From a bacterium (GTDB lineage Bacteria > Joyebacterota > Joyebacteria > Joyebacterales > Joyebacteraceae): a stretch of 64,000 bases of DNA. This document shows positions 6,066 through 42,500 of the stretch, one piece after another (within the stretch, counting starts at the first letter, position 1; the number at the start of each line of letters is the position of its first letter). The DNA is taken from the NCBI GenBank assembly GCA_029990205.1, contig JAPEKQ010000004.1, positions 5,109 to 69,108 of the forward strand. Reading direction: 5' to 3'. Made by a program: the position numbers and the translations under genes. The notes beneath the pieces are model-generated. The model was not told the DNA's origin, made no database searches, and saw only the letters and a list, made by a program, of their open reading frames with translations.

Positions 6066-6299
6066 GCTCTTCTCCTCCTGGGCATGTGCGAGTAACCTCG
6101 AATGACGCGACTGCAGCGGCCCGCTCGTGACGCTCACGCGTCGACCGCCTTGCACCTCCCGCAGTGCTCAGCTTGTCATCGCTCCTCCTTCGCCGCTCCG
6201 AAGTCGCTGAACTCCGCTCTTGACGGGCCAGCTCGGTGCGTGTACATTCCCGAAGCACAAGAGCGGACATGCTCACGCCTCACGGTGTGATGCAGCCCC

Positions 6300-27444: not shown

Positions 27445-27537
27445 ATGCCTCAATCCAAGAGAGCGCCGCACTTCATCGTGTCGACGCTCTCCAGTGTGTC
27501 ACTTCTGTTGTCACCTGCGCAAGACTGATGGGCAGTA

Positions 27538-29997
27538 TCATTCCACCACGACGACCGAGTTCCTCCCGCCGTACGGGTCGGACACGAACTCGGGGTTGCC
27601 CTCGTCCTCAAACCAGCGCGAACCGCCGTCGCTGACGAACTTGTACTGATAGGTCCCCGGCTCAAGTTCGATGACGACAGTCCAGACATTGTCGCCGTCC
27701 TCGTCGGACATGGGCGTCGCGTCGGTGCTCCAGCCATTGAAGTCCCCGGCCAGATGAACCGTGACACCGAGTTCGTCCCGGGTGCTGAACAGCACGCCGC
27801 CGTCGACCATCACCGGTCCCGCGAGCAGGGTCGCGTCATCCTGACTGTCGGCACGCGCCATCGAACCACCGCCGCCGACGCCCGTCGAGCCGGTCAGCAC
27901 CGGCACGGACAGGAATTCCGGCACCTCGTCCCCCATGATCTCGTACACGTGAGAGAGCGTCTTGCGGAAGATCATGTCGAACGCGTCCTCGAGGGACGTG
28001 GTCTGGTCATCGCCGTACCACCAGAACCAGTCGCTTCCTTCCGCGGCCAGCATCTCATCGTACGCGCGCTCGAGCGTCGGGCCGTCGACCTCGCCGCTCC
28101 GTTCGCGAGCCTCAAGATGGTCGCGGACCGTGGCCAGGTACTCCCACGCTCTGTTCTCCTCGGGCTCACCGATCCACGTCGCGAAGTTGTGGCTGATCCA
28201 GGACCCGGCCCAGAGCTTCGGGAGCGTCTCGGTCGGAGGGTTGTCGGCCAGATACTCGGCGACCGTGACGGTGTTGAGCCACTCCGCCTGCTCCATCTGC
28301 GAATACCACGAGTGGAAGAACTCCTTGCCGTCGTTCTGGAACCACTCCCACGCATTCTCGCCGTCGAGGATGATCGGGACGACGTAGTCGACGTCATCAC
28401 TGCCGAGCTGCCGATGGATCGAGTGCAGGCTCCGCATCATCGCGTTGGCCGCCTCCACCCCATCCAGCCGGCTGAAGTTGAAGCCGATGTCATCTGAGAG
28501 GCGGTGATCGCGGAAGATCATGGCGACCCGCGCGCCCTCCTCGCCCGCCCAGTACATCGTGTACTGCTGACGCGGCGAGAGACTTCCGGCACCCAGCGTC
28601 CGCTGGAGCACCTGGTCGTCCGACGCCATCCAGAGAAGACCGGCGTTCGCGACCGCGGGAACGATCTCCTGCGCGACCGAGCCCTCGCCCGGCCAGAGAC
28701 CGGCGGGCGGCGCGCCGAAGCGCTCCTCGTAGTACTCGACCGCGAGGTCGAGATGGCGACCCACATCCTCACGGCGGGCGAACCGCTTCGCGGGCAGCGC
28801 CGTCCCCGGCATCGCCACGCGCGCCAGCTCGGTGTCGTGGATGAGCGGCAGGATAGGATGATAGAACGGCGTCGTGGTCACCTCGATCTGCCCGGCGTCC
28901 TGGAGCCGCCTGTGAACCGCCACGACGTTCTCCATGATCGCGCGCTGTGCTTCGAGGATGTCGACCTTGTCTGCTTCGGTGTACCCGCGCTCCTTCTCAA
29001 TGAGATGGCGCACGGTCACGACGCGCCCGTCCTCGAGCTCGACATCGCCGTCCTGGAAGTCCGGATCGAACCACGCGAGATTGAACCAGACCTGGAGGTC
29101 GCGCCAGTCCTGCTCGCTGAATGTCGCAGCCGATGCGCGGAGCTCGTCGGGTTCGTCCCCGCCCTTCATTCCCTTCAGCTCTGCGTATCGCGGCCACACG
29201 TGGATCATGTTGTCCCAGTGCGCGTTGAAGAAGTGCGTCAGCAGATAGACCTGGTCGGTCTCGGTGAGGTCACACGCGGGCTTGAGCGTCATGCGGTAGT
29301 ACGCGTCGCACGACACCCCGGCGTCGAGCGCCTCGAGCAGGTCCTCAAGCTGCATCAGAAGAATCGGCGTGAGGTTCACGGTGAAGTGAACGCCCGGGTA
29401 GTCATCGAGGATCGCGACCATGTCGTAGTAGTCCTTGATCGCGTGAAGACGCACCCACGGCTCCATGTACTCGCCGGTATCGAGGTCCTTGAGGTACTTC
29501 GGCTGATGCTGGTGCCAGATGATGGCGAGGTTGATCGGCCGGCCGGCGGACTCGAGCGTTCCCACGATCGGCTCGTGCACCGCGTCGCCCTCGAGCGACC
29601 CGAGCACGACCGCTCCGTCATCGGCGACCGACAGCACGCTGTTGAACCCACCGTGACCGTCATCGGTCTTCTCGGGGTTGTGCGGGTCGGGCTCCCACGA
29701 GACTCCGCCGTCGACCACGAACTTGTACTGCCACGTCCTCCCCGCCTGGAGGTCGAGCACGACGTCCCACACGCCGTCGCCGTCCTCGTCGGTCATGGCC
29801 AGCGCGGCCGGGTCCCAGCCGTTGAACTCGCCGGCGAGATGCACGGTCCGCGCGCTCGAATGCGCGAACGTGAAGAGGACGCCGCCCTCGACCGCGACCG
29901 GGGCCGCCGACGTGGCGGCTGACGCCGCAGCGGGGACGAGTGCGATCATCGACGCCAGCGCGAGAACAACCGGGATACGCATTGATGCTCTTGTCAT
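27538..29997 (-). CDS. Secreted GH57 family alpha-glucan-active enzyme flanked by N- and C-terminal CBM48 (glycogen/starch-binding, E-set) modules.
   Basis: Signal peptide MTRASMRIPVVLALASMIALVPAAASA. CBM48-like VHLAGEFNGW...YKFVVDG...EPDPHNP occurs twice. GH57 regions WHQHQP, HAIKDYY, LWPGEGSVAQE, ILDGENAWEW. Confidence 0.8.
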   Translation of the reverse strand: MTRASMRIPVVLALASMIALVPAAASAATSAAPVAVEGGVLFTFAHSSARTVHLAGEFNGWDPAALAMTDEDGDGVWDVVLDLQAGRTWQYKFVVDGGVSWEPDPHNPEKTDDGHGGFNSVLSVADDGAVVLGSLEGDAVHEPIVGTLESAGRPINLAIIWHQHQPKYLKDLDTGEYMEPWVRLHAIKDYYDMVAILDDYPGVHFTVNLTPILLMQLEDLLEALDAGVSCDAYYRMTLKPACDLTETDQVYLLTHFFNAHWDNMIHVWPRYAELKGMKGGDEPDELRASAATFSEQDWRDLQVWFNLAWFDPDFQDGDVELEDGRVVTVRHLIEKERGYTEADKVDILEAQRAIMENVVAVHRRLQDAGQIEVTTTPFYHPILPLIHDTELARVAMPGTALPAKRFARREDVGRHLDLAVEYYEERFGAPPAGLWPGEGSVAQEIVPAVANAGLLWMASDDQVLQRTLGAGSLSPRQQYTMYWAGEEGARVAMIFRDHRLSDDIGFNFSRLDGVEAANAMMRSLHSIHRQLGSDDVDYVVPIILDGENAWEWFQNDGKEFFHSWYSQMEQAEWLNTVTVAEYLADNPPTETLPKLWAGSWISHNFATWIGEPEENRAWEYLATVRDHLEARERSGEVDGPTLERAYDEMLAAEGSDWFWWYGDDQTTSLEDAFDMIFRKTLSHVYEIMGDEVPEFLSVPVLTGSTGVGGGGSMARADSQDDATLLAGPVMVDGGVLFSTRDELGVTVHLAGDFNGWSTDATPMSDEDGDNVWTVVIELEPGTYQYKFVSDGGSRWFEDEGNPEFVSDPYGGRNSVVVVE

Positions 29998-30009
29998 TGT
30001 GCCTTCCCC

Positions 30010-30810
30010 CTAGTCGATCTCGAGCGCGTCGAGCGTCACGTACTTGCCCTGCTCCAGGTCGTACGCGCCGAGGATCTCCTCCTGCGAACGCGCCTTGCCG
30101 CCGAAGATGCCGAACATCTTCTTCGGAGCCGGGACGATGATGTCATAGATGTTGGGGTCGATGGCGAGATCGTCACCGCCGCCGCCGCGCCACTCCTCGC
30201 AGCGCGCCTTGACGTCTCGGAAGTCTCCGAGACCGCCTGCGCCGTAGTCGTCCTGGAGCCCCACGGCCGGCGTGAACCGCCAGTCCGAGGCAGCCCCGTC
30301 GATCTCATCGATGGGGATCGAGATCCGGATCGTGCCGGCCTCGACGTCGGTCACAACGGTCGCGCCCATGTCGACCTTCTCCGACGAAGCGTCCATCACC
30401 TCAACGGTCTCACCCGCAGCGAAGACCTGATACTCCGAAGGAGCCGAAAGCATCACGTTGGCGTTCCGCCTGAGCTCGCCGTCGCCGCCCTCCTGCGTGT
30501 CGATGGCCACGGCCACCATCGTCAGCCGGTTGCCGATGTCCCACGGGTCCACGAGGTTGCGGATCTTGAAGACGAACACCAGGTCGCCGTTGTCCCGCTC
30601 GATCGCGAACGAGAGCACGTCCGCCTCTCCGCCATCGCCGAAGGCCTCGTTCGTCGGATACGTGTAGTCGCCGTCGCCCGTGTCGTCGCCCTCGGGATCG
30701 GTCCACGAAGCCAGGAGCTCCGCGCTCGCCGAGCCGGCGACCGAAAGCACGAGCGCGCCGACCAGCAGCAACATCAACCATCTCATCGTCGTTCGCGTTG
30801 TTCGTTTCAT
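30010..30810 (-). CDS. Secreted protein with a glucodextranase DOMON-like domain (hypothetical alpha-glucan binding).
   Basis: Start at the ATG at 30810 (MKRTTRTTMRWLMLLLVGALVLSVAGSASA). Motif DPEGDDTGDGDYTYP resembles an internal domain of the 1776-aa cargo protein (DDEEGDDHGPNQ...YYHYP). The family assignment is from memory and tentative. Confidence 0.55.
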   Translation of the reverse strand: MKRTTRTTMRWLMLLLVGALVLSVAGSASAELLASWTDPEGDDTGDGDYTYPTNEAFGDGGEADVLSFAIERDNGDLVFVFKIRNLVDPWDIGNRLTMVAVAIDTQEGGDGELRRNANVMLSAPSEYQVFAAGETVEVMDASSEKVDMGATVVTDVEAGTIRISIPIDEIDGAASDWRFTPAVGLQDDYGAGGLGDFRDVKARCEEWRGGGGDDLAIDPNIYDIIVPAPKKMFGIFGGKARSQEEILGAYDLEQGKYVTLDALEID

Positions 30811-30921
30811 CGTTCTCCCCCCTGTATGGGTCCGGATTGCTCGCGCCGGCAACGGCGCGTCCGCGCGCCGGTGGAGGCGCGGTGGGACGTTCCGCACACG
30901 CGGTGCGGTCGGTCGGTGTCG

Positions 30922-32157
30922 TTACTCGCCGGCCAGAAGCTTGTCGACCTCACCGACCGCGGTGTTGATCGCGTCCTCGACCGACTTCGTCCCGTCGAGC
31001 GCCGCCTGCATCTCCGGGATGAACAGATTCTCGATCTCCGGATAGAACGGCGTCGGCGGCCTGGGAATGGCCGTCTGCATCTGCTCGACGAACGTCGAGA
31101 GATACGGGTGCTCCTCGGATGTGATGGCGTCCATCGCCTTGGTGTTCACGGGGATCTGGCCGAGCGTGAGCGCCCAGTTCCGCTGATTCTCCTCGTTCGC
31201 GACGAACATGAGGAACTCGGCGGCCAACTCGGGATGCTGCGACGTCTTGAAGACGACGAGGTCGTTGCCGCCGACGTTGGTATGGGAACCTGCGGGGCCG
31301 GCGGGAATGAGGCCGACGCCGAAGTCGATGCCCGTCCGCTTCAGACTCTCGACCGCCCACGGTCCGTTGAGGATCATGGCGTACCGGCCGTTCTGGAACC
31401 CGACGTCACCGGTGATACCGCCGGCGCGCCATGCGCCGCCCTCGATACCGTACTCCTCGAACATGTCGACCTTGAGCTGGAAGGCCGCGATGGCCTCCGG
31501 CGTATTGAGCGTGCAGTGCATCAGGTCGTCGGAGAGGAGATCCGCGCCGTACGTGTAGAAGAACGGGAGCGACCACCAGAGCGAGTTGGTCAGGCCGATG
31601 CCGAAGATGCCCTCGTCCTTGTCCGTGAGCCTCTGACCGTATGAGACCAGCTCGTCCCAGGTCGCGGGCGGCGTGTCGGGGTCGAGCCCCGCCTCGCGGA
31701 ACATCTCTCTGTTATAGAAGAGGCACAGGCCGTTGGTCTGGTCCGGGAGTCCGTAGAGCTGTCCGTCGTACATGCAGCTCTGAAGCGCCACCGGGAAGAT
31801 GTCGGCCAGATACTCGGCCGGGACGTACTCGTCGAGCGCCAGGAGCGCGTTCTTGCTCGCAAGCTTCGGAAGGAACGAGACGTCGACGCGCGCGATGTCC
31901 GGCTCGGTCCGCGTGGTGAGCGCCGTCTGGATCTTCGGCTCGGCGCCGGCGAACGGCAGACGCACGACCTCGACGGTCACGCCCGGGTGCGACTCCTCGA
32001 ACCGCGCCACCATCTCCTTGAAGACAGGGTGCTCTTCGTCATTGTAGGTCTGCCAGATCGTGAGCGTGCCGCTCGTGTCACCGCCCCCGCCACCACATCC
32101 CCAGAGCACCAGTCCGGCGAGCAGCAGCGTGCAGACGATCGCGGTCATTCTCTTCAC
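30922..32157 (-). CDS. Carbohydrate ABC transporter substrate-binding lipoprotein (MalE / maltodextrin-binding family).
   Basis: GTG start with GGGGGA Shine-Dalgarno-like sequence. Lipobox LVLWGC. Bacterial extracellular solute-binding family 1 sequence features. Confidence 0.8.
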   Translation of the reverse strand: MKRMTAIVCTLLLAGLVLWGCGGGGGDTSGTLTIWQTYNDEEHPVFKEMVARFEESHPGVTVEVVRLPFAGAEPKIQTALTTRTEPDIARVDVSFLPKLASKNALLALDEYVPAEYLADIFPVALQSCMYDGQLYGLPDQTNGLCLFYNREMFREAGLDPDTPPATWDELVSYGQRLTDKDEGIFGIGLTNSLWWSLPFFYTYGADLLSDDLMHCTLNTPEAIAAFQLKVDMFEEYGIEGGAWRAGGITGDVGFQNGRYAMILNGPWAVESLKRTGIDFGVGLIPAGPAGSHTNVGGNDLVVFKTSQHPELAAEFLMFVANEENQRNWALTLGQIPVNTKAMDAITSEEHPYLSTFVEQMQTAIPRPPTPFYPEIENLFIPEMQAALDGTKSVEDAINTAVGEVDKLLAGE

Positions 32158-32188
32158 GTGTTCCCCCTTGCGTCTGACTCCGGCTGCG

Positions 32189-33016
32189 CTATTCCTTCAC
32201 CGCACCCATCGTCATTCCCTCAATGAAGTAGCGCTGCGCGAAGAAGAACAGCACAGCAATGGGCAGGATCGAGATGCACGACCCCGCCATCTTGAGCGTA
32301 TAGAGCTCCTCGTGGGCGCTCTTGAACATCGCGAGTCCGACCGGCACGGTGTAGAGCCGTTCGACGTTCGTGACGATGAGCTGCCAGAGGAAGTTGTTCC
32401 AGTGGAACTGGAATGTCAGCAGAAAGAGCGTCGCGATGATGGGAATCGAGAGCGGGACCATGATGGTCGTGAAGACCTGTCGCTCGCTCGCGCCGTCCAT
32501 CTCCGCGGCCTCGATGAGTTCGCTTGGAATGGTCAGCATGTACTGCCGCATGAGGAAGAGCCCGAACACGTTCGCCAGGTGCGGGATGATCATCGCCTTG
32601 TAGGTGTTCATCCACCCGAGCTTCGTGATGATGGCGAACTGCGGGACGACGTACATCATCCCCGGGATCATGAGCGACAGAAGCAGGAGCCCGAACAACC
32701 GGTCCCGCATGAAGAACTGCTTCTTGGCAAAGACGTAGCCGGCCAGCGACGCGAAGAGCGTCGCGAACGCCGCCGCGGTCGTGGCGACGATGACGCTGTT
32801 GACGAAGTAGCGGCCGAAGCCGAAGTCGCCAAGCACGCGCTTGAAATTCGAGATCGTCGGACCCGTGGGGAACAGCTCGGTCGAGAACGCCTGCCCGGGC
32901 TCCTTGAACGCCGTCACGACCATCCAGAAGAACGGGAACAACACCACGATCGCCGCGGCCGTCAGCCCGACGTAGAGCGCGATGGTCTTCCAGACCGATG
33001 TTCTCTGTACTGCCAC
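32189..33016 (-). CDS. Carbohydrate ABC transporter permease (MalG-like).
   Basis: Six predicted TM segments and the EAA motif region (ELIEAAEMDGASERQVF). Start moved to the internal GTG (AGGAGA Shine-Dalgarno-like sequence) so that it does not overlap the upstream permease by 100 nt. Confidence 0.7.
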   Translation of the reverse strand: MAVQRTSVWKTIALYVGLTAAAIVVLFPFFWMVVTAFKEPGQAFSTELFPTGPTISNFKRVLGDFGFGRYFVNSVIVATTAAAFATLFASLAGYVFAKKQFFMRDRLFGLLLLSLMIPGMMYVVPQFAIITKLGWMNTYKAMIIPHLANVFGLFLMRQYMLTIPSELIEAAEMDGASERQVFTTIMVPLSIPIIATLFLLTFQFHWNNFLWQLIVTNVERLYTVPVGLAMFKSAHEELYTLKMAGSCISILPIAVLFFFAQRYFIEGMTMGAVKE

Positions 33017-33060
33017 GATCTCTCCTGCGGTCGCCGCGCGGCCCGAGGGCCGTGCGCGGT

Positions 33061-34032
33061 CTAGGTGTTGTCCGACCCGAGGAACTTCCTGTTCACCAGC
33101 GATACGATCACGGTCAGCGCCAGCAGCACATACGACATCGCCGAGGCATAGCCGAGGCGCCACTGGTTGTAGAACGCGTCAAAGACGTAGTACCCCGTCA
33201 CCCACGTCGCGCCGAGCGCCCGTCCGCCGACATCGACGTTCGGACCGCCGCTCGTCATCGCGTAGACCTCCACGAACGCATTCAGTGCGCTGATGGTCCC
33301 GATGATGACCATGAAGAACGTGATCGGCTTGACGAGCGGAAGCGTGATGCGGGTGAACCGCTGCCACGGCGTCGCCCCATCGATCTCGGCCGCCTCGTAG
33401 AGCGACGGTGAGATGTTCTGGATGGCCGAGAGATAGAGGATCATGCCGAAGCCGGCGCCCTTGAGGACGTTGGCGAACACGACCGACGGCATCGCCGATC
33501 CGGGCATCCCGAGGAACCCCTTCTCGGTGAACGCCGTGATCCCGATACTCTCGAAGAACTGCACGAGGATACCCACGTGCGGGCTGTAGATGAGCGTCCA
33601 GACGATGCCCACCACGAGCATGTCCAGCACGTACGGCAGGAAGAACGCGCTCCGGTAGACGGCCACCGCTTTGAGCCGGTTGTTCAGAAGGAGCGCAAGC
33701 GTGAGCGATGCTGCGATGCCCGCCGGGATGATCAGGACCGCGTAGTAGAGCGTCATCGCGACCGACCACCAGAACTTCACGTCCGTGAACAACTTGATGA
33801 AGTTCTTGAACCCGACGAACTGGAGCCCGCCGAACACGTCAAACGAGTCGGCGGGCACCTGATGCATTGCGAGGTACAGCGAGTAGACGACCGGGTACAC
33901 AAGGAAGACGAGGAAGATGATCAGGAACGGCGCAAGGAACGTATACGCAGTCAGGTTGTCCCTGGCGTGCTTCGTCAGCGACCAGGACCTTCCCGCCCGG
34001 GCTTCTCCGCCTCCTGTCCCCCGCTCGCTCAC
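33061..34032 (-). CDS. Carbohydrate ABC transporter permease (MalF-like).
   Basis: GTG start overlapping the upstream stop (GTGA). EAA motif (LYEAAEIDGATPWQRF). Multiple TM helices. Confidence 0.75.
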   Translation of the reverse strand: MSERGTGGGEARAGRSWSLTKHARDNLTAYTFLAPFLIIFLVFLVYPVVYSLYLAMHQVPADSFDVFGGLQFVGFKNFIKLFTDVKFWWSVAMTLYYAVLIIPAGIAASLTLALLLNNRLKAVAVYRSAFFLPYVLDMLVVGIVWTLIYSPHVGILVQFFESIGITAFTEKGFLGMPGSAMPSVVFANVLKGAGFGMILYLSAIQNISPSLYEAAEIDGATPWQRFTRITLPLVKPITFFMVIIGTISALNAFVEVYAMTSGGPNVDVGGRALGATWVTGYYVFDAFYNQWRLGYASAMSYVLLALTVIVSLVNRKFLGSDNT

Positions 34033-34820
34033 TCGACCGTCAGCACCGAGTTCTTGCCCCCGTAGGGGTCAGAGATGACGTCCGGGTTGGCCGGGTCTTC
34101 CATCCACGTCCCGTCCACCACGAACTTGTACTCGTACTGCCCGGGCTCGAGCATGAGCGTGATCACCCAGATCCCGTCGTCGTTCTTCGCCATCGCGTCC
34201 GCGTCGGGGCTCCATGCATTGAACGAGCCGGCGATGAAGACCGCGCCCGCGTCCGGCATGTCGAGCGACACATCGACCGGGAACGCCCCCTCCGGCGCCA
34301 GCGCTCCCCGGGGCTCCGGCGGCGGGTCGGCCTGCGCGGCCTCCTCGCGGCCGCCGGTGACCGTGCCCGTGACGATCTCGGCATCGTAACGGATGGTCGC
34401 CGGCACGATGACCATCGAGTTCTCGATGCCGCTCTCGTAGTCCGTGTCCGGGTTGTTCGGATCGATCTCCCACGTCACGCCGCCGTCGAGCACGAACTTG
34501 TACTGATAGCGCCCCGGGGGCAGCGGAATGACGATCGACCAGACGCCGTCGCCGTCCGCATCATGCATAGGGTCGATGGCCGGATCGTAGCGACCGCCGC
34601 CCTGCGTCCCACCCCAGTTGTTGAAGTTGCCCGCCAGTGTCACCTGGCGCGCCGAGGGCGCGTAGTAGTTGAAGATGAACCCGTCCGAGACCTCGTGAGG
34701 CGGAGGAAGCCGGTCCTCGATCACGCTCAGCACGCCCGCGCACGACGATATGACCATCGCCGCCGCGGCGAGCGCGAGAACGAGGGCGAGACGGGTACGT
34801 CGCGTTCTGTTCATACGCAT
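34029..34820 (-). CDS. Surface lipoprotein with two tandem CBM48 / E-set glucan-binding modules (a functional analogue of SusE/SusF).
   Basis: Signal/lipobox MRMNRTRRTRLALVLALAAAAMVISSC. Two copies of the ...AGNFNNW...YQYKFV(L/V)DG...W..DP.NP module. Confidence 0.7.
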   Translation of the reverse strand: MRMNRTRRTRLALVLALAAAAMVISSCAGVLSVIEDRLPPPHEVSDGFIFNYYAPSARQVTLAGNFNNWGGTQGGGRYDPAIDPMHDADGDGVWSIVIPLPPGRYQYKFVLDGGVTWEIDPNNPDTDYESGIENSMVIVPATIRYDAEIVTGTVTGGREEAAQADPPPEPRGALAPEGAFPVDVSLDMPDAGAVFIAGSFNAWSPDADAMAKNDDGIWVITLMLEPGQYEYKFVVDGTWMEDPANPDVISDPYGGKNSVLTVE

Positions 34821-34834
34821 CGTCCTCTCCCCTC

Positions 34835-36952
34835 CTAGAACGTGATGAGCGCCATGACGCCGAAGGTCTTCATCTCTGAGAGCGCTTCCTCGGCATCGAG
34901 GACACTCGTGCCGTCGTTGTCCCACATGTAGTTCGAGCGCCAGCGCTCACGGCCGTTGCCTCGGCCCTCGACCGGCGTGTCCATGTAGCTCAGCGGGTCG
35001 ACACCGTAGCCGACCCTGAACTGGATGTTCGGACGCGGGCTGTAGACGATCGCCACGTACGGCGCTATGAACGACTCGTCGTCGTAGGTCGTCCCGCGAC
35101 CGCTCGTGGTGTCGCTCACCGTCGTCGTCGGCACATCCTTGTACGTCATGTGCCGGACGTCGAAGAGAACGCTCCAGTCCTGGTTCAGGCTGTAACCGCC
35201 GCTGAAGATCGCTTCCATCGTATCGTAGGTCCCGTAGTCGTCATCGGGGTCGTACTCGATCGTGCGCGACTCGCCCGCGATCTGGACCCAGAGACGGTCC
35301 TCCATGATGTCCGCGCGCGCCCGGCCTCCGAACCGCGTGGCGGTCAGGTCGAGTTCGTCCTCACCGAACCAGATCGCCATCGAATCCGTGAACACGGCGT
35401 TGTAGCTCATGGTGGCGTACTCGACGCCGAGATCGAAGATACCCAGCTCGAACGCGCCATCGAACTCGATGGCCGTTCCGTCCAGCTCGGGGATCGGACC
35501 CGTCACGCTCGCTACGAGTTCGGAGCTTCCGCCGCCGACCTCGGTGTACGTGCGAAGGGTCCCGACCGGCCAGAGGTCACCCCAGCCTGACGTCCCCATA
35601 GCCATGAAGTGTGAGGAGCTGGCGGATGTGAACTCCTCCCCGTCCTCCATCCCGTCGATCTGGATCTTGGCGAACTCGAGGTCGAGATCGAGCGGCTCCA
35701 CCGGATCGGCCGAGAGCTCCACCAGGATGATGCTGCCCTCCATGTCGCCGACCGGCACGTCGATCGCGCCGTTGCCGTACTCGTCGCCCTCAACCTTCTC
35801 GTAGTTGCCCATGTTCCACAGGCTCTCGTAGTTGTAGAGGGCGTAGCCGGCCGTGATACCGTACTGCTCAGTGATCGGGTAGCTCGCGTCGAACGTGATG
35901 AACCGCTCGGTGTTCGAGAGCTCGAACCAGTCGCTCGACGTCCCGGACTCGGCGAGGTAGTCGTCGAGGTCCGGACTCGTGTTCGTACCCTGGAAGCCGA
36001 TCCACCAGTCGTCGCGCCACGAAGCAAACGTCCCGCCCAGCGCAACCGGGCCGACGGGCCGCGTCAGGCGCAGACCGATGAGATCGGTGCCCGTGTTGTC
36101 ATACTCGTCGGGATCATTGAGGACGTCGGCATCGTACGCGTTGGTGTAGACACCGGTCAGGTCGAAATCCCAGAAGTCGGTCGTGAGGATCAGACCCTGG
36201 GTGCCGCGGCCGAACGCGATGTGTTCCTCGGGAATGGTCCCGAGAAGGTCCCGGTGTCCCACGAGCTCGAACGGCTCGTCGAACTGGATCAGCTCCTCAT
36301 TGTAGAAGCCGGTCACCGAGAACAGGTCGCCCTCGAGCGCGACGCGGCCGTCATAGAGGTCGGCCGAGATCTCATTCATGTCGCCCTCGCCCGAGTAGAG
36401 GCGGAGGGTCGCCCGACCGGTCACCTGGTCGGTCACCGTCGGGACGACGGAGATAAAGACCTCATGATCCGGACGAACCAGACGCCACGACGGAGTCTCG
36501 TCGTCCTCGGACTGCGTGTTGTAGTTGGCACGGTACCAGCCCTCGAGACGGACACGCGAGTTGACCTGCGTGTTCGAGATGGCGGTCGTCGTGTCAGTCG
36601 CCGCGACTTCACCGCCGTCGTCGACAACGAGAAGCGAGTTGCCGTAGTCGCCGGCCGTCTTCGGGTTGTCCGGGTCGGCCACCCACTGCGAACCGTTCAC
36701 GACGAACTTGTACTCGTAGCTCCCCGCCCCCAGGTCCAGGACCACACGCCACGTGCCGTCGTCCCCGAGGGTCATCGGGTTCTCGTTCATGTTCCAGTTG
36801 TTGAAGATGCCGGCCAGGCTGACGCTCGCCGCGTACGGATCGTAGTAGCTGAACTCGATACCGCCGTCCACAGCCACGATCCCCGCGTGCGACGCCATGG
36901 CGAAGACAAGCACCGCCAGCAACACCACGCTCAGAAGATTCTTCGTTCTCAT
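34835..36952 (-). CDS. Outer-membrane beta-barrel protein with an N-terminal CBM48 glucan-binding module (candidate maltooligosaccharide porin or transporter).
   Basis: Signal peptide MRTKNLLSVVLLAVLVFAMASHA. CBM48 module VSLAGIFNNWNMNENPM...YEYKFVVNGSQWVADPDNP. Roughly 580 aa of alternating-hydrophobic beta-strand sequence ending in the aromatic C-terminus ...FGVMALITF. Confidence 0.6.
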   Translation of the reverse strand: MRTKNLLSVVLLAVLVFAMASHAGIVAVDGGIEFSYYDPYAASVSLAGIFNNWNMNENPMTLGDDGTWRVVLDLGAGSYEYKFVVNGSQWVADPDNPKTAGDYGNSLLVVDDGGEVAATDTTTAISNTQVNSRVRLEGWYRANYNTQSEDDETPSWRLVRPDHEVFISVVPTVTDQVTGRATLRLYSGEGDMNEISADLYDGRVALEGDLFSVTGFYNEELIQFDEPFELVGHRDLLGTIPEEHIAFGRGTQGLILTTDFWDFDLTGVYTNAYDADVLNDPDEYDNTGTDLIGLRLTRPVGPVALGGTFASWRDDWWIGFQGTNTSPDLDDYLAESGTSSDWFELSNTERFITFDASYPITEQYGITAGYALYNYESLWNMGNYEKVEGDEYGNGAIDVPVGDMEGSIILVELSADPVEPLDLDLEFAKIQIDGMEDGEEFTSASSSHFMAMGTSGWGDLWPVGTLRTYTEVGGGSSELVASVTGPIPELDGTAIEFDGAFELGIFDLGVEYATMSYNAVFTDSMAIWFGEDELDLTATRFGGRARADIMEDRLWVQIAGESRTIEYDPDDDYGTYDTMEAIFSGGYSLNQDWSVLFDVRHMTYKDVPTTTVSDTTSGRGTTYDDESFIAPYVAIVYSPRPNIQFRVGYGVDPLSYMDTPVEGRGNGRERWRSNYMWDNDGTSVLDAEEALSEMKTFGVMALITF

Positions 36953-37031: not shown

Positions 37032-38495
37032 CTAGTAATAGATCCTTACGAATGCCTTGAACACCTGCTCTGTCGTCGTCGACGAGCCGTGGTCGACGAA
37101 GTCGCCGTCGTTCGTGAAGTCGTTGCTGTGGTCCGAATTGCCGTACTCCACGAAGAACTCGGCGCCCGACCAGGCAAGGTACCTGATCTGGGCGAACGCC
37201 GTCTGACGCGACTCGGTGAGCTCGTCGACGTTCATCACGCGCGCGTAGAACTTCCAGTTGTCGCTCAGGTTGACGTTCACTCCGAACCCGTAGGCTGTCA
37301 GTTCGTAGTCGGAGTCGATGTCCTTGATGCGGTACTGGAGCACGAGTTTGACGAGCCGGTTCTCACCGGTGACCTCGGTGAAGAGGTTCGGCCAGACGCC
37401 ATCGCGGTTCTCGTAGACCTTGTACTCAACCTTGCCGGTGAAGCCGTTGACAAACTCGAGGTATGCCTCGGTCCCCCACTCCTGCTTGACTCCCTCCTCG
37501 GCGTCGTCCCCCTCCTTCGGCGAATCCTTGTAGGTCCACCCCTTCAGGTTGATCGCCTTGGTCGGGATGCGGTAGTGCGCTTCGGCGTAGTACCTGCTGT
37601 ATCCGTTCTTGTTCTTCTGGTCTCCGCTCGCCATCTGCTCGGCGTAGAAGATCTCGCCGATGTCCTCATAGGAGACCAGGAACCGCAGCGGCCCGACCTT
37701 GAGGTCGCGAAGCTCGGTCTTGAAACCGTTGCGTCCTTCGTCACCCGGGTGCCGCGGATCACGCGATGTGTTCCGGCCGTACTCGGTCGCCCAGGTCATC
37801 CGGCCGAAACGACGGAGCGCCGGGACCAGCTCGCCGACCGCGACCTCGCCGTCGAACGCGATGACCTCATCGAAGTCCGAGTAGTCGCACCGGGCATACG
37901 TGCTTCCGAGCACGATCCGGTCGCTCGCGAAGTCGCGGGTCACGCGACCGCCTCGGTACTCGTTCTCGTAGCTCGTGTCGCTGTAGAACGCGGCGCCCTG
38001 GAACCCGTAGGTGTCCCAGAAGTCGAGTCGGATTCCCTGCGCGCGCGGACCGTACGAGTCATCCTTCACCCATCCCTGGTCGAGCACGCCGAGGAGCGGT
38101 TCGTTGAGCCAGAACCGGTCCTGCCTCGAGAAGAGGTACGCCTCAACACGGCTCCCCCGGAACCGGATGTGTCCCTCCTTGAGGTAGAGGAGGGAAGTCT
38201 TCTCGTACGTGTCCGTCTCCTCCGAATCCTGCCAGTTGTTGGACTCCGCGACGAGCTTCAGGAACGTGTCGATATCCGTCCACGGGCTGGTCTTCAGCCT
38301 GAGCTCGGCGTAGAGCCGCGGGTTGTCGAGTCCCCAGCTCGGGTCTCCACCTCCGCTGCTCCTGATCTCCGTCATCAGATCGGAGTACCCCTCCAGCGTC
38401 GTGATAGCCGCCGCCGGCGGAGCCAGAGCCAGGAGCAGGACGGTCGCAAGGAACACTGCGGTTCCGGCCGTCCCGAATCTCCTCTGTCGTGTCAA
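37032..38495 (-). CDS. Outer-membrane beta-barrel protein (488 aa).
   Basis: TTG start with AAGGAG 6 nt upstream gives MTRQRRFGTAGTAVFLATVLLLALAPPAAA. C-terminal ...KAFVRIYY. Confidence 0.55.
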   Translation of the reverse strand: MTRQRRFGTAGTAVFLATVLLLALAPPAAAITTLEGYSDLMTEIRSSGGGDPSWGLDNPRLYAELRLKTSPWTDIDTFLKLVAESNNWQDSEETDTYEKTSLLYLKEGHIRFRGSRVEAYLFSRQDRFWLNEPLLGVLDQGWVKDDSYGPRAQGIRLDFWDTYGFQGAAFYSDTSYENEYRGGRVTRDFASDRIVLGSTYARCDYSDFDEVIAFDGEVAVGELVPALRRFGRMTWATEYGRNTSRDPRHPGDEGRNGFKTELRDLKVGPLRFLVSYEDIGEIFYAEQMASGDQKNKNGYSRYYAEAHYRIPTKAINLKGWTYKDSPKEGDDAEEGVKQEWGTEAYLEFVNGFTGKVEYKVYENRDGVWPNLFTEVTGENRLVKLVLQYRIKDIDSDYELTAYGFGVNVNLSDNWKFYARVMNVDELTESRQTAFAQIRYLAWSGAEFFVEYGNSDHSNDFTNDGDFVDHGSSTTTEQVFKAFVRIYY

Positions 38496-38612: not shown

Positions 38613-39500
38613 CTACCAGACGAACATCGCCGAGAGCCGATAGAGACTCCCGATGCGCCGCTCGGAGAGCAGCGCCACGTCGACCAGGAGGTTCTTCGAC
38701 TTGATGCCGACTCCCGCCGTGATCCGGTCGCGGTTCATCCCCGCCCGGAGCGCGAACGCGTCGTAGAACCAGACCTCGGTGCCGATGTTGATGGATGACT
38801 TCTCGTCGTAGTACGCCGGCGCCTCGCGCGGAACGCGCCACTCCGCCGACATGAGCATCACACCGCGGAACAGATACGACCCGCCGATCCGCATCTCGGC
38901 GTAAACCGGGTCGATGTCGTCCGGCGCGGTCGTGTCGAGAAGCTGAAGCTCCGGCTCGCCGAGGTTCCGGAGGACGCCGCCGGCGCTCCAACTCCCTCGG
39001 CGGTAGAGCACTCCGAGATCGGCCGCGAACGCCGCGTCGCCGTCCCCGCTGAAGGCGGGGTCGTTGTAGTACTCGTATCCGGGCGCGTCGATCGAGAACC
39101 GCTTGAGCGCGACGCCCGCAGCGAGCCCCTCGACAAAACACCCGTTGAAACCGTATCCGGCGATGAGCGTGTCCTCGTTGTAGAGGTCCTCCGCCCCGGT
39201 CCGCATCCACCCGGCGGCCGCGCCGTGCGTCCCGTTCCCGTACCCGGCGATCGCCGCGTCCTCGGACACGCCGTCCACACCGTAGACGCTGGTGCGCATC
39301 CCGAACACCTGGATCTGCTCGAGCGTCGCGAGACCCGCGGGATTCCAGTGCAGCGCCGTGACATCATCCGCGACGGCGACGAACGCGCCCCCCATGCCCA
39401 TCGCCCGCGCGCCGAGTTCGGTCTCAACGAAGTTGGCCGAGACTGTCGCCGGTATGAGCGCGAGCGCCGCGCAGAGGACGAGCGTTGCTGTTCTCTTCAT
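38613..39500 (-). CDS. FadL-fold outer-membrane beta-barrel of the T9SS-associated PorV/PorQ/PorP(SprF) type.
   Basis: Signal peptide MKRTATLVLCAALALIPATVSA. N-terminal motif GARAMGMGGAFVAVADDVTALHWNPAGLA is characteristic of the FadL/PorV-like family. C-terminus ends in aromatic ...MFVW. Located 9 bp downstream of a T9SS cargo gene. Confidence 0.6.
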   Translation of the reverse strand: MKRTATLVLCAALALIPATVSANFVETELGARAMGMGGAFVAVADDVTALHWNPAGLATLEQIQVFGMRTSVYGVDGVSEDAAIAGYGNGTHGAAAGWMRTGAEDLYNEDTLIAGYGFNGCFVEGLAAGVALKRFSIDAPGYEYYNDPAFSGDGDAAFAADLGVLYRRGSWSAGGVLRNLGEPELQLLDTTAPDDIDPVYAEMRIGGSYLFRGVMLMSAEWRVPREAPAYYDEKSSINIGTEVWFYDAFALRAGMNRDRITAGVGIKSKNLLVDVALLSERRIGSLYRLSAMFVW

Positions 39501-39509
39501 GTGCGCTCC

Positions 39510-42500
39510 TTACTTGATGACGACCACGGGGCGGTTGATCCGCTCGTAGGTCGGCTGCTGTTCGAATTTGGCTTCGACTCTCATGACGTAGATTCCATAC
39601 GGGACGACCTCACCGTGCATGTCGGTCCCGTCCCACGTGATCTGGTTCGGCGTCCTGCCGAGATACTCGGTCGCCTGGTGCCAGACGAGACGCCTGACGA
39701 GCTTGCCGGCCAGATCGTAGAACTCGATGTTGACGTGGTCGGCCTCGCGCGACAGGTAGAACGTGACGGTCATCTCGTCGTAGAGACCGTCACCGTTCGG
39801 GGAGAACGGGTTCGGCTCGGTCAGCACACCGGAGAGACCCGCGTCATCGTCGAATCCGAGCGCGTCCCAGTAGAACACGCCGAGTTCGCCGAGATCCTGC
39901 GTCTCCGTCGAGACGGTGTTCCCGCTCGGCGAGTTGGCCGCGCCGCTGAGGATCCACCGTTCCGTCAGTGTGTTCCATTCGAAGAGACCGAACTTCGCCT
40001 CCTCGAGCGAGCCGACGTCGTACTGCGGGTAGTGGAGAGCGACGGAGATGGGCGACGCTGCCGAGACCGGCGAGCCGCCGGACTCCAGCGTGATCTCACG
40101 CGCCGTCCCGAGGTACTCCATGTCGTCCCGGATGTTGCTGTCGTCGATCTCGATCGACGGAAGCGCTCTGACGATAACGTCCACGTCCGCTCGCTGCGAC
40201 AGATCGCCGTCGGTGAGCGTCACGACGGTGCCGTCCTGGAACACCAGATCGTAGCCCTCGCCGAGCGAAGTCGTGTCGGCGACCGTGATCGCCTGTTCCT
40301 CCGCCCACGGCTCCGGGATCGCGATCTCGAACGGGCCGGCCGTGATGTCGTTCTCATACTGCGAGGCGTCCATGGCCCGGATGCTCGCTGTGATAGCGCG
40401 CGCCTGGCCGGTGACGTTGAGCGTGAGCTCGTTCGTCGCGCTGACGATCTCGCTGCGCGAGACGGCCGCGGCCCAGATGTCGCCCTTGAGGTTGACCATG
40501 TCGACCGAGTGCTGCGCCGTGTCGCCGTAGGCCTCCCACAGGAATGTCGCCTCTTCGACGCCCGAGCCGACGTCCTCGATAGTCGTCCAGAAGACGGCGG
40601 GCGCCTCATCGAGCGCGATCCACGGCACGTGCTGAATCGTGCCCTCGGGGACAAAGCTCGTGATGACCGGCGGCGAGTAGTCCTCGGCAAAGCTCGCCTC
40701 GAGGACGCAGGCGACCATGTTGTTGTCGAACCGCTCCTGTGCCTCGTCGGTCGTGTAGTCGAGCATCTCCTCCTGCGTGCGGCCCGGCTCGTGCCCGGCG
40801 CCGCAGCTCACGGCCACGTCGATGATGTTCGCGTCGCGGTCACGGCCGTCCTCGCTGTCGGCCCCGCCGCCGAACTGCCACTGCTGCGTGTTGGCGTTGA
40901 TCCACCGGATGCCGCCGAGATTCTCATCGCTCGAGTCGCCGTCGTGCGAGGACAGGCAGACGATGACGTCCCATTCCAGGATGGCGCTCTCCAGATCGGC
41001 GCCGACATCGAACAGGTCGCGATGAACGCGGACATCGATCGTGTCGTCCTCGTAGTTGTTGCAGAACGAGATGTCACTGTCGTTCTTGTAGAGACCCCAG
41101 TTCGCCGAGGAGTTCGAGTCGTTCGAGATGACGAACCACTTGCCCCATCCCTCGACGGAGATGCCGTAGTCCCAGGCGTCGACGGTCGCGATGTCGGTGT
41201 TCCGGCTCGGGAACCCGTTGGTCGAACCGGCGCCTTCCTTGGCATCGATGTAGATGTCGAGCTTCTGGAGGTTCATGTCCGTGCGGTACTCGCTGTCGCA
41301 CGTCGCTTCGCTCGGGTTCGGCGCGCCCCAGTCGGCGGCGCCGTCATCGAGATGGCTCACAAGATCAGCGACCGTCGTACGGAACACGACGTAGTCACCA
41401 TCGATGAAGATCTCCTCGCGGATGATGTCGAACGAACCCTCGAAGAAGACCGTGTCCGTCGGATAGTGATAGTAGAGACCCTCGATCGGCGTGCCGTCCG
41501 CCGTACCGTCGTCGGTCTGGTTCGGACCGTGGTCGTCCCCCTCTTCGTCATCGAAGTCGCGGATGGCCACGGCCGGGTTGTTCACCGTCACGGTGATCGA
41601 ACCCGATGCCGGCCACACGTTCGTGGCGTCTCGCGCCGTGATCGTGACGGTCTGGTCGCCGTCCGAGGCGCCCGAGGTCAGGATCTCGGAGGCCGAGTAG
41701 GTCCCGTCGCCGGCGGTCACATCCGCTCCGGCGCCATCGTCGAGCATCCGGATGAGCTCGGTCCCGCCGATGGTCGACAGATCGAGGAACACATCCCCGA
41801 TGCCGCCGCCCGTATCGGTCACTTCGATGGTGTACGTCACGAGGTCACCGGGCGCGGCCGGTGTCGGCACGGCAAGGCCGCCCGCGACCGTCGGCGCGTC
41901 ACCCTCCTCCCGGACGACGTAGGTCGTGTAATTGCCGAGCGTCACCGGCGTCGTTGCGGTCTCCCACCACTCGCCGGTCTCGGGCACCATGTCGTGCGTG
42001 GCGTCGTGCGGCACCGAATCGAGCGCCGCGCGCTTCTCGCCGTCCGTCTCCTGGGTCAGGTAGATCTCGAGCCGCACGGTGTCGCCGGGCGACGCCTCGA
42101 TCACCGAGAGCGGCACCTGGACCACGGCCGTGGTCTCGGTCTTGTAGGTCAGTCCCTGCGACACACCGTTGACGCCCTCGGCCCAACCGATGCGCCACTC
42201 CTCGTTGTCGAAGTCGTAGTGCTCCCACTCGCTCCCGGTGTGGCGGCGGAGGTCGGAGTAATCGTCGGCCGCGTACTTGTACGTGAAGCAGTAGTCCGGC
42301 ACGTTCGTGTGCCCGTAGTTGACCGGGAAGCCGAAGGGATCGCTCGCCCCGCCGTTGGCGTCCGCGTGCGTCTCGAACAGCGTCATCAGATGGACGCCGT
42401 CCCAGTTCGAGTTGAACGTGAGCGTAACGGTGAGGTCGTCCTCGTCGTTCGTCACACTGAGGATGGTCAGGTCGACGCCCTCGAGGCTGTTGTGGTCCGG

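What the first reader, a model, noticed from the sequence alone, without database searches (positions are those of the whole stretch)
34835..36952. CBM48 fused to an outer-membrane beta-barrel: candidate glucan-binding porin
The signal peptide is followed by a canonical CBM48 module (VSLAGIFNNW...YEYKFVVNGSQWVADPDNP). After that come about 580 aa with the amphipathic beta-strand periodicity and the aromatic C-terminal residue (ITF) of a large outer-membrane barrel. I do not recall this domain fusion in characterised maltoporins (LamB) or SusC. It would place a starch-binding module on the periplasmic or extracellular end of a porin/transporter, functionally merging SusC-like and SusE-like roles.
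Basis: inference. Interest (0 to 1): 0.7.

Follow-up and report, generated by a model that had tools for sequence, protein, structure and literature searches.

The report
Starch-binding module fused to membrane barrel
This gene encodes an uncharacterised outer-membrane barrel protein carrying a starch/glycogen-binding module, and it sits in a gene cluster conserved across uncultured Eisenbacteria that looks like a starch-uptake machine built differently from the textbook ones.

Summary

The fusion appears obligatory. Nearly every full-length relative among 1.84 billion representatives carries one to three N-terminal CBM48 copies, and one subfamily carries CBM20 instead.

The gene lies in a cassette colinear in about 35 genomes (Eisenbacteria, Krumholzibacteriia, Latescibacteria):
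- a giant T9SS surface protein
- a PorP/PorV-like protein
- a paralogous barrel without CBM
- this protein
- a 2xCBM48 lipoprotein
- an ABC sugar importer
- GH57
- a debranching enzyme

Most likely it is the outer-membrane stage of a TonB-independent alpha-glucan uptake system. Loop alternation puts the CBM48 on the periplasmic side, not the surface. I could not inspect coordinates, so this placement is inferred. I found no published description. I rate it a new variant of a known kind.

The parts
36884..36952 (-). Sec (SPase I) signal peptide, aa 1-23 (MRTKNLLSVVLLAVLVFAMASHA|G)
   Evidence: Read directly from the sequence. It is the only segment with high Kyte-Doolittle hydrophobicity and is helical with low pLDDT in the model.
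36617..36883 (-). CBM48 starch/glycogen-binding beta-sandwich, aa 24-112
   Evidence: Pfam CBM_48 45.6 bits (cutoff 22.4) and AMPK1_CBM 38.1 bits. PDB sequence hits are AMPK beta CBM and a pullulanase CBM48. W53, K82, W90 and N105 are invariant in 51 members. Seven strands at pLDDT 80-90.
36557..36616 (-). Flexible linker, aa 113-132, ending in the conserved ISNT motif just before strand 1
   Evidence: pLDDT below 50 for aa 119-132. S126, N127 and T128 are invariant or nearly so. Twenty residues are too few to hold a plug domain.
34838..36556 (-). Outer-membrane beta-barrel of about 22 strands, aa 133-705, with C-terminal beta-signal ...MALITF
34868..35005 (-). Family signature insert between strands 21 and 22 (aa 650-695, GVDPxxYxDTPVEGRxNGRERWR..DAEEAL), predicted as two helices; candidate lumen-occluding or gating element
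   Evidence: This is the most conserved stretch of the family (P653, G663, G667 and R668 invariant). Helices at 667-678 and 684-692. The role is inferred.
37032..38495 (-). Upstream paralogous outer-membrane barrel without CBM (487 aa; the ORF extends to 38576 but the called start is at 38495)
34029..34820 (-). Downstream lipoprotein with two CBM48 modules (263 aa, lipobox VISSC, conserved tether C-x5-I-x-DRLPPP)
   Evidence: Pfam finds two CBM48/AMPK1_CBM stretches. Gene call of 263 aa. 24 of 29 cassette orthologues match a strict lipobox pattern and the other five have near-lipoboxes; a DRLP(P/A/S/E/K)P-type tether follows the Cys in nearly all, and three non-cassette proteins lack both.
38613..39500 (-). 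PorV/PorQ/PorP-family outer-membrane protein (295 aa), probable anchor or shuttle for the upstream T9SS cargo
   Evidence: NCBIfam PorV_fam 77 bits, below its cutoff of 90. Pfam PorP_SprF, PorV and FadL weak hits. PorP_SprF is annotated on the orthologue in L002. Colinear in 32 loci.
39510..44840 (-). Giant secreted protein (1776 aa) with Ig-like domains, a Glucodextran_C domain and a T9SS C-terminal sorting domain
   Evidence: Pfam Glucodextran_C 97 bits, and FlgD_ig/CHU_C at the C-terminus. Gene call of 1776 aa. No PDB sequence relatives. Conserved upstream in 26 loci.
30922..34032 (-). ABC sugar importer: two BPD_transp_1 permeases (33061-34032, 32189-33163) and a lipoprotein SBP_bac_1 binding protein (30922-32157)
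   Evidence: Pfam. The SBP has weak MalE and GanS similarity. The LWGC lipobox is visible in the sequence.
24955..30897 (-). Alpha-glucan enzymes: secreted Glucodextran_C protein (30010-30897), GH57 with CBM48 at both ends and a signal peptide but no T9SS domain (27538-29997), and cytoplasmic GDE_C amylo-alpha-1,6-glucosidase (24955-27471)
   Evidence: Pfam, NCBIfam and the N-termini.

Best explanation
The protein is the carbohydrate-binding subunit of an outer-membrane alpha-glucan (starch/glycogen/maltodextrin) uptake module of Candidatus Eisenbacteria and neighbouring FCB-group candidate phyla.

Shown:
- After Sec export and signal-peptide cleavage, residues 133-705 are predicted to fold as a barrel of about 22 strands, resembling a TonB-dependent-transporter barrel.
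- It has no plug domain, no recognisable TonB box and no SusD-type lid.
- A CBM48 with intact alpha-glucan-binding residues hangs from strand 1 on a roughly 20-residue flexible linker.

Inferred:
- Strand 1 starts on the periplasmic side, so the CBM48 is most probably periplasmic.
- The long, highly conserved loops L1, L3, L4, L5 and L11 lie on the opposite (outer) face. Together they total about 200 residues, and they probably narrow or gate the lumen in place of a plug.

Proposed working model, all inferred:
1. The giant T9SS-anchored Glucodextran_C protein engages alpha-glucan at the cell surface.
2. Chains or long maltodextrins diffuse through the channel formed by this barrel, probably together with its CBM-less paralogue, without TonB energy.
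3. The tethered CBM48, and the 2xCBM48 lipoprotein encoded 14 nt downstream, capture the emerging chain in the periplasm and bias movement inward.
4. The chain is handed to the periplasmic GH57, which itself carries two CBM48s.
5. The products are taken up by the MalEFG-like ABC importer and debranched in the cytoplasm.
For: Architecture:
- Signal peptide.
- CBM48 above the Pfam gathering score.
- W53, K82 and W90 aligned to the AMPK beta ligand-binding residues, and invariant in 51 members.
- Confident AF2 model with about 22 strands.
- One family member reaches the Pfam TonB_dep_Rec_b-barrel gathering score, and 4 of 51 hit it weakly.
- No Plug hit in 51 of 51 members, and only 20 residues lie between the CBM48 and strand 1.

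Selection on the fusion:
- A barrel-only profile run against 1.84 billion representatives finds just 166 proteins.
- Essentially all full-length ones carry 1, 2 or 3 N-terminal CBM48 copies.
- One subfamily carries 2xCBM20, a different starch-binding family, in the same position.

Context:
- The gene order is colinear in about 35 species-level genomes: giant T9SS protein, PorP/V-like protein, paralogous barrel, CBM48-barrel, CBM48 lipoprotein, ABC importer, Glucodextran_C, GH57, GDE_C.
- The two barrels are distant paralogues, and both are predicted to be large barrels.

Topology:
- Short turns and long loops alternate strictly, and the C-terminal Phe is invariant.
- Low pLDDT of the linker argues for a free tether.
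- GH57 has a signal peptide but neither a T9SS domain nor a lipobox, so CBM48-bearing partners are expected in the periplasm.
- Precedent: SusC transporters carry an N-terminal Ig-like domain ahead of the TonB box (PMC7782687). By established TBDT topology, everything N-terminal to strand 1 is periplasmic.
Against: - No transport, binding or localisation experiment exists for any member.
- I could not inspect model coordinates or PAE. Barrel closure, lumen occlusion and the position of the CBM48 are therefore inferred from secondary structure, loop lengths and fold matches.
- A plug-less 22-strand barrel would be a dangerously wide pore unless its loops occlude it, and that occlusion is assumed.
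- No surface amylase is recognisable in the cassette. Either polymer-sized substrate must cross the membrane or the giant protein hides an unrecognised catalytic domain.
- The ratchet role of a periplasmic CBM has no characterised precedent.
- The coevolution analysis gave no usable inter-domain signal.
Confidence: 0.55

Rival explanations
1. Surface display, the first reader's SusC+SusE merger. The CBM48 is exported through its own barrel or threaded through the lumen, as in autotransporters or RcsF in OmpC/F. It then sits on the cell surface and captures starch directly above the channel. The 2xCBM48 lipoprotein would be a surface SusE/F-like partner.
For: - Tandem arrays of 2-3 CBM48 or CBM20 copies in some members resemble the multi-domain surface starch binders SusE and SusF.
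- The lipoprotein has a conserved post-Cys tether, C-x5-(I/V)-x-DRLPPP, that could be a surface-export or barrel-docking signal.
- A 20-residue extended linker is long enough to cross a membrane-embedded barrel (inference).
- The linker has low confidence in the model, so its path is undefined.
Against: - An even strand count, the turn/loop alternation and the C-terminal beta-signal all place the N-terminus of strand 1 in the periplasm.
- To my knowledge, every characterised N-terminal domain on a TBDT-type barrel is periplasmic (SusC NTE: PMC7782687).
- This organism uses T9SS C-terminal domains for its surface proteins in the same cassette, yet neither CBM48 protein has one.
- No autotransporter-type helix or barrel family was detected.
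Confidence: 0.2
2. The CBM48 acts as a plug. The module sits inside the 22-strand lumen, entering from the periplasmic side like a TBDT plug. It both closes the pore and provides the sugar-binding site, and substrate binding or partner proteins displace it.
For: - The barrel is TBDT-like, and the CBM48 occupies the sequence position of the plug, immediately N-terminal to strand 1.
- A roughly 90-residue beta-sandwich would fit a 22-strand lumen (inference).
- The pore needs some occluding element.
Against: - The linker is predicted disordered (pLDDT 37 for aa 121-130), whereas a packed plug would normally be confident.
- Members with two or three tandem CBMs cannot place them all in the lumen.
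- The long conserved loops, about 200 residues in total, already offer an occluding mass.
- The CBM-less paralogue has the same fold with no N-terminal domain at all.
Confidence: 0.07
3. The protein is not an importer. The two barrels would be a docking or assembly platform for the giant T9SS cargo, or an exporter or anchor for a self-made alpha-glucan such as a capsule or periplasmic glycogen-like polymer. The CBM48s would hold that polymer at the envelope.
For: - The barrels always follow the giant T9SS protein and its PorP/V-like partner.
- Type B T9SS cargo is known to be anchored by adjacent PorP-like outer-membrane proteins (PMC9143113).
- Fold hits include the polysaccharide exporters AlgE, PgaA and PelB and the usher FimD, at lower Z.
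Against: - No glycosyltransferase or synthase lies in the cassette. Instead it holds a binding-protein-dependent ABC importer, GH57 and a debranching enzyme, all catabolic and import functions.
- The barrels match no T9SS component model.
- Replacement of CBM48 by CBM20 in one subfamily points to starch recognition as the selected trait.
Confidence: 0.1

Closest known systems
SusC-type TonB-dependent transporters of Bacteroidota polysaccharide utilisation loci (SusCD with SusE/F/G)
   Same: - A barrel of about 22 strands, with TBDTs as the best fold matches.
- Encoded in a glycan-catabolic gene cluster next to a carbohydrate-binding lipoprotein.
- An N-terminal beta-sandwich domain on a flexible tether, comparable to the SusC NTE (PMC7782687).
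- FCB-group host that uses T9SS.
   Different: - No plug domain, no recognisable TonB box and no SusD-like lid.
- The N-terminal domain is a genuine starch-binding CBM48 rather than a CarboxypepD_reg domain.
- It is paired with a paralogous second barrel.
- The inner-membrane step is an ABC importer, not an MFS transporter.
- The barrel has no significant sequence similarity to PF00593 in the window protein itself.
Maltoporin LamB, cyclodextrin porin CymA and chitoporin ChiP (TonB-independent sugar-specific channels)
   Same: - Proposed passive, substrate-specific passage of alpha-glucan oligomers across the outer membrane, feeding a MalE-type binding protein and ABC importer.
- Loops rather than a plug domain would shape the pore.
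   Different: - Those channels have 14-18 strands, here there are about 22.
- None of those channels carries a fused CBM or works with a paralogous barrel and a CBM lipoprotein.
LptD/LptE (architectural analogy only)
   Same: An N-terminal periplasmic beta-sandwich, a large plug-less barrel, and a partner lipoprotein encoded or acting with it. Both handle a glycolipid or glycan polymer without TonB.
   Different: - Opposite direction and different cargo.
- 26 strands.
- No sequence relationship, and Foldseek ranks it far below the TBDTs.
CBM48 modules of AMPK beta subunits, GlgB, pullulanases and SEX4
   Same: The same Pfam family and the same binding residues.
   Different: To my knowledge, all characterised CBM48s are attached to soluble enzymes or kinase scaffolds. 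None is fused to a membrane barrel, and literature searches found none.

Membership tests
CBM48 (CAZy family; Pfam PF02922 / PF16561) | Profile match above the curated threshold | tested here: met
   CBM_48 45.6 bits against 22.4, and AMPK1_CBM 38.1 against 26.8. All 51 of 51 family members hit both.
CBM48 (CAZy family; Pfam PF02922 / PF16561) | Beta-sandwich fold | tested here: met
   Seven strands over aa 22-110 at pLDDT 80-90.
CBM48 (CAZy family; Pfam PF02922 / PF16561) | Conserved ligand-contacting residues (AMPK beta1 W100, K126, W133, N150) | tested here: met
   W53, K82 and W90 align to W100, K126 and W133. W53, K82, W90 and N105 are invariant in 51 members. The N105 to N150 equivalence needs a 2-residue gap and is tentative.
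CBM48 (CAZy family; Pfam PF02922 / PF16561) | Demonstrated binding of alpha-glucan | not testable with these tools
   Needs ITC or a pull-down with maltoheptaose, cyclodextrin or glycogen.
BAM-assembled outer-membrane beta-barrel protein | Sec signal peptide and a C-terminal beta-signal ending in an aromatic residue | tested here: met
   Signal peptide aa 1-23. The terminal ...ALITF has F705 invariant.
BAM-assembled outer-membrane beta-barrel protein | Closed antiparallel barrel with short periplasmic turns and long external loops | tested here: met
TonB-dependent transporter / SusC | 22-stranded barrel matching PF00593 | tested here: inconclusive
   The fold matches best. The window protein has no PF00593 hit. 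4 of 51 relatives hit weakly, and one (P0014) reaches 27.5 bits against a cutoff of 27.
TonB-dependent transporter / SusC | N-terminal plug domain (PF07715) inside the barrel | tested here: not met
   No Plug hit in the target or in any of 51 members. Only 20 residues separate the CBM48 from strand 1.
TonB-dependent transporter / SusC | TonB box preceding the plug | tested here: not met
   The mature N-terminus GIVAVDGG is predicted as an extra N-terminal strand (aa 22-28) pairing with the first canonical CBM48 strand. No separate TonB-box segment exists. This judgement is by inspection only.
TonB-dependent transporter / SusC | Adjacent SusD-family lipoprotein (for SusC-type) | tested here: not met
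   No SusD-like family appears in any cassette gene. The adjacent lipoprotein is 2xCBM48.
Maltoporin LamB family | PF02264 match and an 18-strand barrel | tested here: not met
Type V autotransporter | 12-16-strand C-terminal translocator with a helical linker in the pore, exporting the N-terminal passenger | tested here: not met
   No autotransporter family hit. The barrel has about 22 strands, and the linker is 20 residues and non-helical.
Bacteroidota-type polysaccharide utilisation locus | A susC/susD gene pair next to CAZyme genes | tested here: not met
   CAZymes and a sugar importer are present, but there is no susC/susD pair. The cassette is a functional analogue, not a member.

The most novel reading that the evidence does not exclude
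The cassette encodes a previously unrecognised type of outer-membrane glycan-import machine. It would be a TonB-independent hetero-oligomer of two paralogous plug-less TBDT-like barrels plus a CBM48 lipoprotein. Periplasm-facing, tethered CBM48 modules would act as a Brownian ratchet that reels long alpha-glucan chains through the outer membrane, giving polymer threading rather than SusCD-style 'pedal-bin' uptake of short oligosaccharides. A T9SS-anchored giant protein would feed it at the surface.
Probability: 0.25. Interest if true: 0.85.

Novelty: new variant of a known kind. Interest (0 to 1): 0.62.

Why it matters
Glycan uptake across the outer membrane is understood through two paradigms. 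One is the small passive sugar porins such as LamB, CymA and ChiP. The other is the TonB-powered SusCD complexes of Bacteroidota.

This family suggests a third solution in sister FCB-group phyla that are widespread in sediments and soils but uncultured. It combines a TBDT-like barrel that has lost its plug and energy coupling with a covalently attached starch-binding module. A paralogous barrel and a CBM lipoprotein always accompany it.

If the CBM48 faces the periplasm, the family would be a concrete, testable candidate for binding-driven (ratchet) import of polymers. It would also offer one possible function for an N-terminal beta-sandwich on a glycan-uptake barrel. That is of interest because the role of the SusC N-terminal extension is still unknown, although the two domains belong to different families.

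On the practical side:
- The cassette is a clear marker for alpha-glucan use in Eisenbacteria, Krumholzibacteria and Latescibacteria genomes.
- It gives names to two large families currently annotated only as 'glycogen-binding domain-containing' or 'hypothetical' proteins.

Tried and rejected
- afdb50 fold library: not available on the machine, so I have no AlphaFold-database neighbours.
- Model coordinates and PAE: not exposed by the tools (one search shows no model files). Barrel closure, lumen filling and CBM48 placement could not be seen directly.
- Coevolution: MI with APC correction on 186 full-length sequences (Neff 161), meant to test strand 1 to strand 22 closure and CBM-barrel contacts. 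The top pairs are dominated by a few subfamily-marker columns (139, 141, 200, 656, 700, 86), so the result is not interpretable as contacts.
- Face-by-face hydrophobicity of the predicted strands: no clean lipid-facing pattern, because the strands extend well beyond the membrane. Uninformative.
- The search for related loci with the diverse barrel alignment A3 failed for lack of a conserved stretch. I redid it with the closer alignment A5.
- The Pfam scan of the 80-sequence alignment A4 exceeded the size limit. I replaced it with local HMM searches.
- Apparent relatives in KSB1, Sumerlaeota, Cytophagia, Thermosipho, Planctomycetota and others turned out to be CBM48-only matches with no barrel. 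I rejected them as family members.
- LamB, autotransporter and genuine TBDT/SusC membership were all rejected on defining features (see the membership table).
- Four literature searches found no description of a CBM-fused outer-membrane barrel or of this Eisenbacteria cassette.
- The giant 1776-aa protein has no PDB sequence relatives and no recognisable catalytic domain.
Full report
**1. The observation**

The window carries a 705-codon ORF at exactly 34835-36952 on the minus strand. An independent gene call on another assembly of the same locus gives the same 705-aa product. It also gives the neighbouring products of 1776, 295, 487, 263 and 323 aa that I use below.

The N-terminus MRTKNLLSVVLLAVLVFAMASHA|G is a standard Sec signal peptide and the only strongly hydrophobic segment. 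The mature protein is very acidic (121 D+E against 37 K+R) and has no cysteine.

Pfam places a CBM48 at aa 30-94, at 45.6 bits against a gathering score of 22.4. The related AMPK1_CBM model scores 38.1 bits. Nothing in Pfam or NCBIfam matches aa 113-705. A family profile searched against all PDB sequences hits only CBM48 modules: AMPK beta, pullulanase, GlgB and SEX4.

**2. Is the CBM48 functional-looking?**

In the pairwise alignment to the AMPK beta1 CBM, W53 pairs with the FNNW tryptophan. K82 and W90 pair with the YKF lysine and the QW tryptophan. From established AMPK beta1 structures these are W100, K126 and W133, the glycogen-contacting residues; this residue numbering is from my own knowledge.

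W53, K82, W90 and N105 are invariant in an alignment of 51 family members that goes down to 29% identity.

**3. Is the rest a barrel?**

AlphaFold2 with the 51-sequence alignment gave mean pLDDT 84.6 and pTM 0.75. The model has three parts.
- A seven-strand sandwich at aa 22-110.
- A low-confidence linker, with aa 119-132 below 50.
- 22 long strands between aa 133 and 704.

The connections alternate strictly.
- After odd strands they are 14, 7, 33, 16, 22, 2, 56, 12, 8, 6 and 46 residues. The two short ones are tips of very long hairpins.
- After even strands they are 4, 3, 5, 2, 5, 6, 2, 3, 4 and 2 residues.

This is the classical pattern of an outer-membrane barrel, with long external loops and tight periplasmic turns. 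The protein ends in ...MALITF, and the final Phe is invariant.

One caveat applies throughout. I could not see coordinates, so closure of the barrel is inferred from these matches rather than observed.

**4. What kind of barrel?**

Four of 51 members give weak hits to Pfam TonB_dep_Rec_b-barrel. One of them, P0014, reaches the gathering score at 27.5 bits against 27. The barrel is therefore probably a very divergent relative of TBDT barrels.

It nevertheless lacks the features that define a TBDT.
- There is no Plug domain in any of the 51 members.
- Only 20 residues lie between the CBM48 and strand 1, which leaves no room for a plug.
- There is no separate TonB-box segment.
- There is no SusD-like neighbour.

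Sequence conservation is concentrated in the long loops rather than in the strands.
- L1: RWRLxRPxHE
- L3: YNEExxxFDxPLExVGHxDLxGTIxEEHIxFGRGxQG
- L4: YDNTGTD
- L6 tip
- The 46-residue two-helix insert before the last strand: GVDPxxYxDTPVEGRxNGRERWR...DAEEAL

These loops total about 200 residues. I infer that they take over the pore-shaping or occluding role of the missing plug.

**5. The fusion is obligatory**

A barrel-only profile (A3) scored against 1.84 billion representative proteins found only 166 hits at E<=1e-3. Local HMM searches show that essentially every full-length hit has an N-terminal CBM48.
- Most have one copy.
- Several have two: P0237, P0239, P0255, P0261, P0263 and P0320.
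- Some have three: P0326, P0331 and P0359.

One subfamily (P0253; loci L036 and L037) has two CBM20 modules instead. Replacing one starch-binding family with another at the same position is strong evidence that alpha-glucan binding is the selected property of the N-terminal region.

**6. Genomic context**

All genes from 44840 down to 22754 are on the minus strand, with short gaps. In order they are:
- a 1776-aa protein with Ig-like domains, a Glucodextran_C domain and a T9SS C-terminal sorting domain
- a 295-aa PorV/PorQ/PorP-family protein
- a 487-aa protein with no family hit
- the CBM48-barrel
- 14 nt later, a 263-aa lipoprotein with two CBM48s
- two ABC permeases
- a lipoprotein SBP_bac_1 binding protein with weak MalE/GanS similarity
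- a secreted Glucodextran_C protein
- a GH57 enzyme with a signal peptide and CBM48 at both ends, but no T9SS domain
- a cytoplasmic GDE_C amylo-alpha-1,6-glucosidase
- a conserved 727-aa membrane protein of unknown function

I scanned one genome per GTDB species and annotated the loci with local HMMs and phmmer. About 35 genomes hold the family, and the core order is kept wherever the contig reaches that far: giant protein, PorP/V-like protein, CBM-less barrel, CBM48-barrel, CBM48 lipoprotein. The importer and enzyme genes usually follow, though their order varies slightly.

Named hosts are Candidatus Eisenbacteria (including Effluviviaceae), Krumholzibacteriia (L031) and Latescibacteria (L052, P0119). 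Apparent hits in other phyla are CBM48-only.

The lipoprotein orthologues almost all have a lipobox followed by a conserved tether, C-x5-(I/V)-x-DRLPPP.

**7. Topology and mechanism**

With 22 strands, tight turns after the even strands and the beta-signal at the C-terminus, strand 1 begins on the periplasmic side. By default the CBM48 is therefore a periplasmic module on a flexible tether of about 20 residues.

Four further points agree with this.
- To my knowledge, everything N-terminal to strand 1 in TBDT-type barrels is periplasmic. That includes the Ig-like N-terminal extension of SusC proteins, whose function is still unknown (PMC7782687).
- In this same cassette the organism marks its surface protein with a T9SS domain, but it does not so mark either CBM48 protein.
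- The GH57 enzyme, also CBM48-bearing, has only a Sec signal and so should be periplasmic.
- Members with three tandem CBMs cannot use them as an in-barrel plug.

My best model has five steps.
1. The T9SS-anchored giant protein engages alpha-glucan at the surface. It is held by the adjacent PorP/V-like protein, as described for type B cargo in PMC9143113.
2. Chains or long maltodextrins pass the barrel or barrels without TonB energy.
3. The tethered CBM48 and the CBM48 lipoprotein capture the chain on the periplasmic side and bias it inward.
4. GH57 cleaves the chain.
5. The ABC system imports the products, and the GDE_C enzyme finishes the job in the cytoplasm.

Only the architecture, the conservation and the gene context are shown. 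The direction of transport, the channel activity, the ratchet role and the hetero-oligomer are inferred.

**8. Rivals**

- Surface exposure of the CBM48 by threading through the lumen. It is physically possible and is hinted at by the SusE/F-like tandem CBM arrays and the conserved lipoprotein tether. It runs against the topology and has no family precedent.
- The CBM48 as a plug. This is disfavoured by the disordered linker, the multi-CBM members and the CBM-less paralogue.
- A non-import role, such as a T9SS cargo platform or an alpha-glucan exporter or anchor. This is disfavoured by the catabolic and import gene content and by the CBM20 swap.

**9. Novelty**

I found no Pfam or NCBIfam model for either barrel. 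Public annotations say only 'glycogen-binding domain-containing protein', 'isoamylase early set domain-containing protein' or 'hypothetical protein'. Four full-text searches found no description.

An outer-membrane barrel in a glycan-utilisation cluster is a known kind of thing. What is new is the combination: a plug-less TBDT-like barrel covalently fused to a starch-binding CBM, always paired with a paralogous barrel and a CBM lipoprotein and linked to T9SS cargo. I therefore rate it a new variant of a known kind, with moderately high interest. It could reach categorical novelty if the ratchet or threading mechanism proves true.

Noticed in passing
window 37032-38495 (-): A 487-aa protein family with no Pfam or NCBIfam hit is predicted with confidence as a large (about 22-24-strand) outer-membrane barrel. 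It is a distant paralogue of the CBM48-barrel (hhalign probability 95.8%) and is always encoded immediately upstream of it.
   Followed up: yes
window 34029-34820 (-), and orthologues in L002-L034: The 2xCBM48 lipoprotein has a strongly conserved segment right after the lipidated Cys, C-x5-(I/V)-x-DRLPPP(H/E)E. It lies 16 residues before the first CBM. It could be a sorting signal or a docking peptide for one of the barrels.
   Followed up: partly
window 39510-44840 (-): A 1776-aa T9SS-sorted protein with a Glucodextran_C domain always heads the cassette. About 1000 residues have no recognisable domain and no PDB sequence relative, so a hidden catalytic or starch-binding domain is possible.
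   Followed up: partly
window 22754-24937 (-): A 727-aa protein with hydrophobic N- and C-terminal segments and no family hit closes the cassette. It is co-conserved in 15 related loci, and its function is unknown.
   Followed up: no
P0253; L036 6065-8581 and L037 9206-11770: A subfamily of the barrel carries two CBM20 starch-binding domains plus about 130 extra residues in place of the CBM48. This is a domain swap between starch-binding families at the same position.
   Followed up: partly
window 537-6155 (-): A second giant secreted protein (1872 aa) has a right-handed beta-helix region and a FlgD_ig-type T9SS C-terminal domain. A possible GH5-like protein lies nearby at 6708-8318 (-), with a Cellulase hit just below threshold. 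This may be another surface glycan-degrading system.
   Followed up: no
window 9723-11375 (-): A secretin-family outer-membrane protein (Secretin, 137 bits) with a TPR-like N-terminus, followed by a 543-aa ORF with no family hit at 11372-13003 (-).
   Followed up: no
window 53958-56276 (+): A 772-aa protein made of two tandem GT4-type glycosyltransferase units (Glyco_trans_1_4 and Glyco_transf_4, each matched twice).
   Followed up: no
window 34835-36952 versus the protein database: The 487-aa neighbour has a 100%-identical database entry (P0121). The best hit listed for the 705-aa target was only 79% identical, even though the same 705-aa gene is called on the Logan contig L081. The word-index search probably missed the identical entry.
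   Followed up: partly
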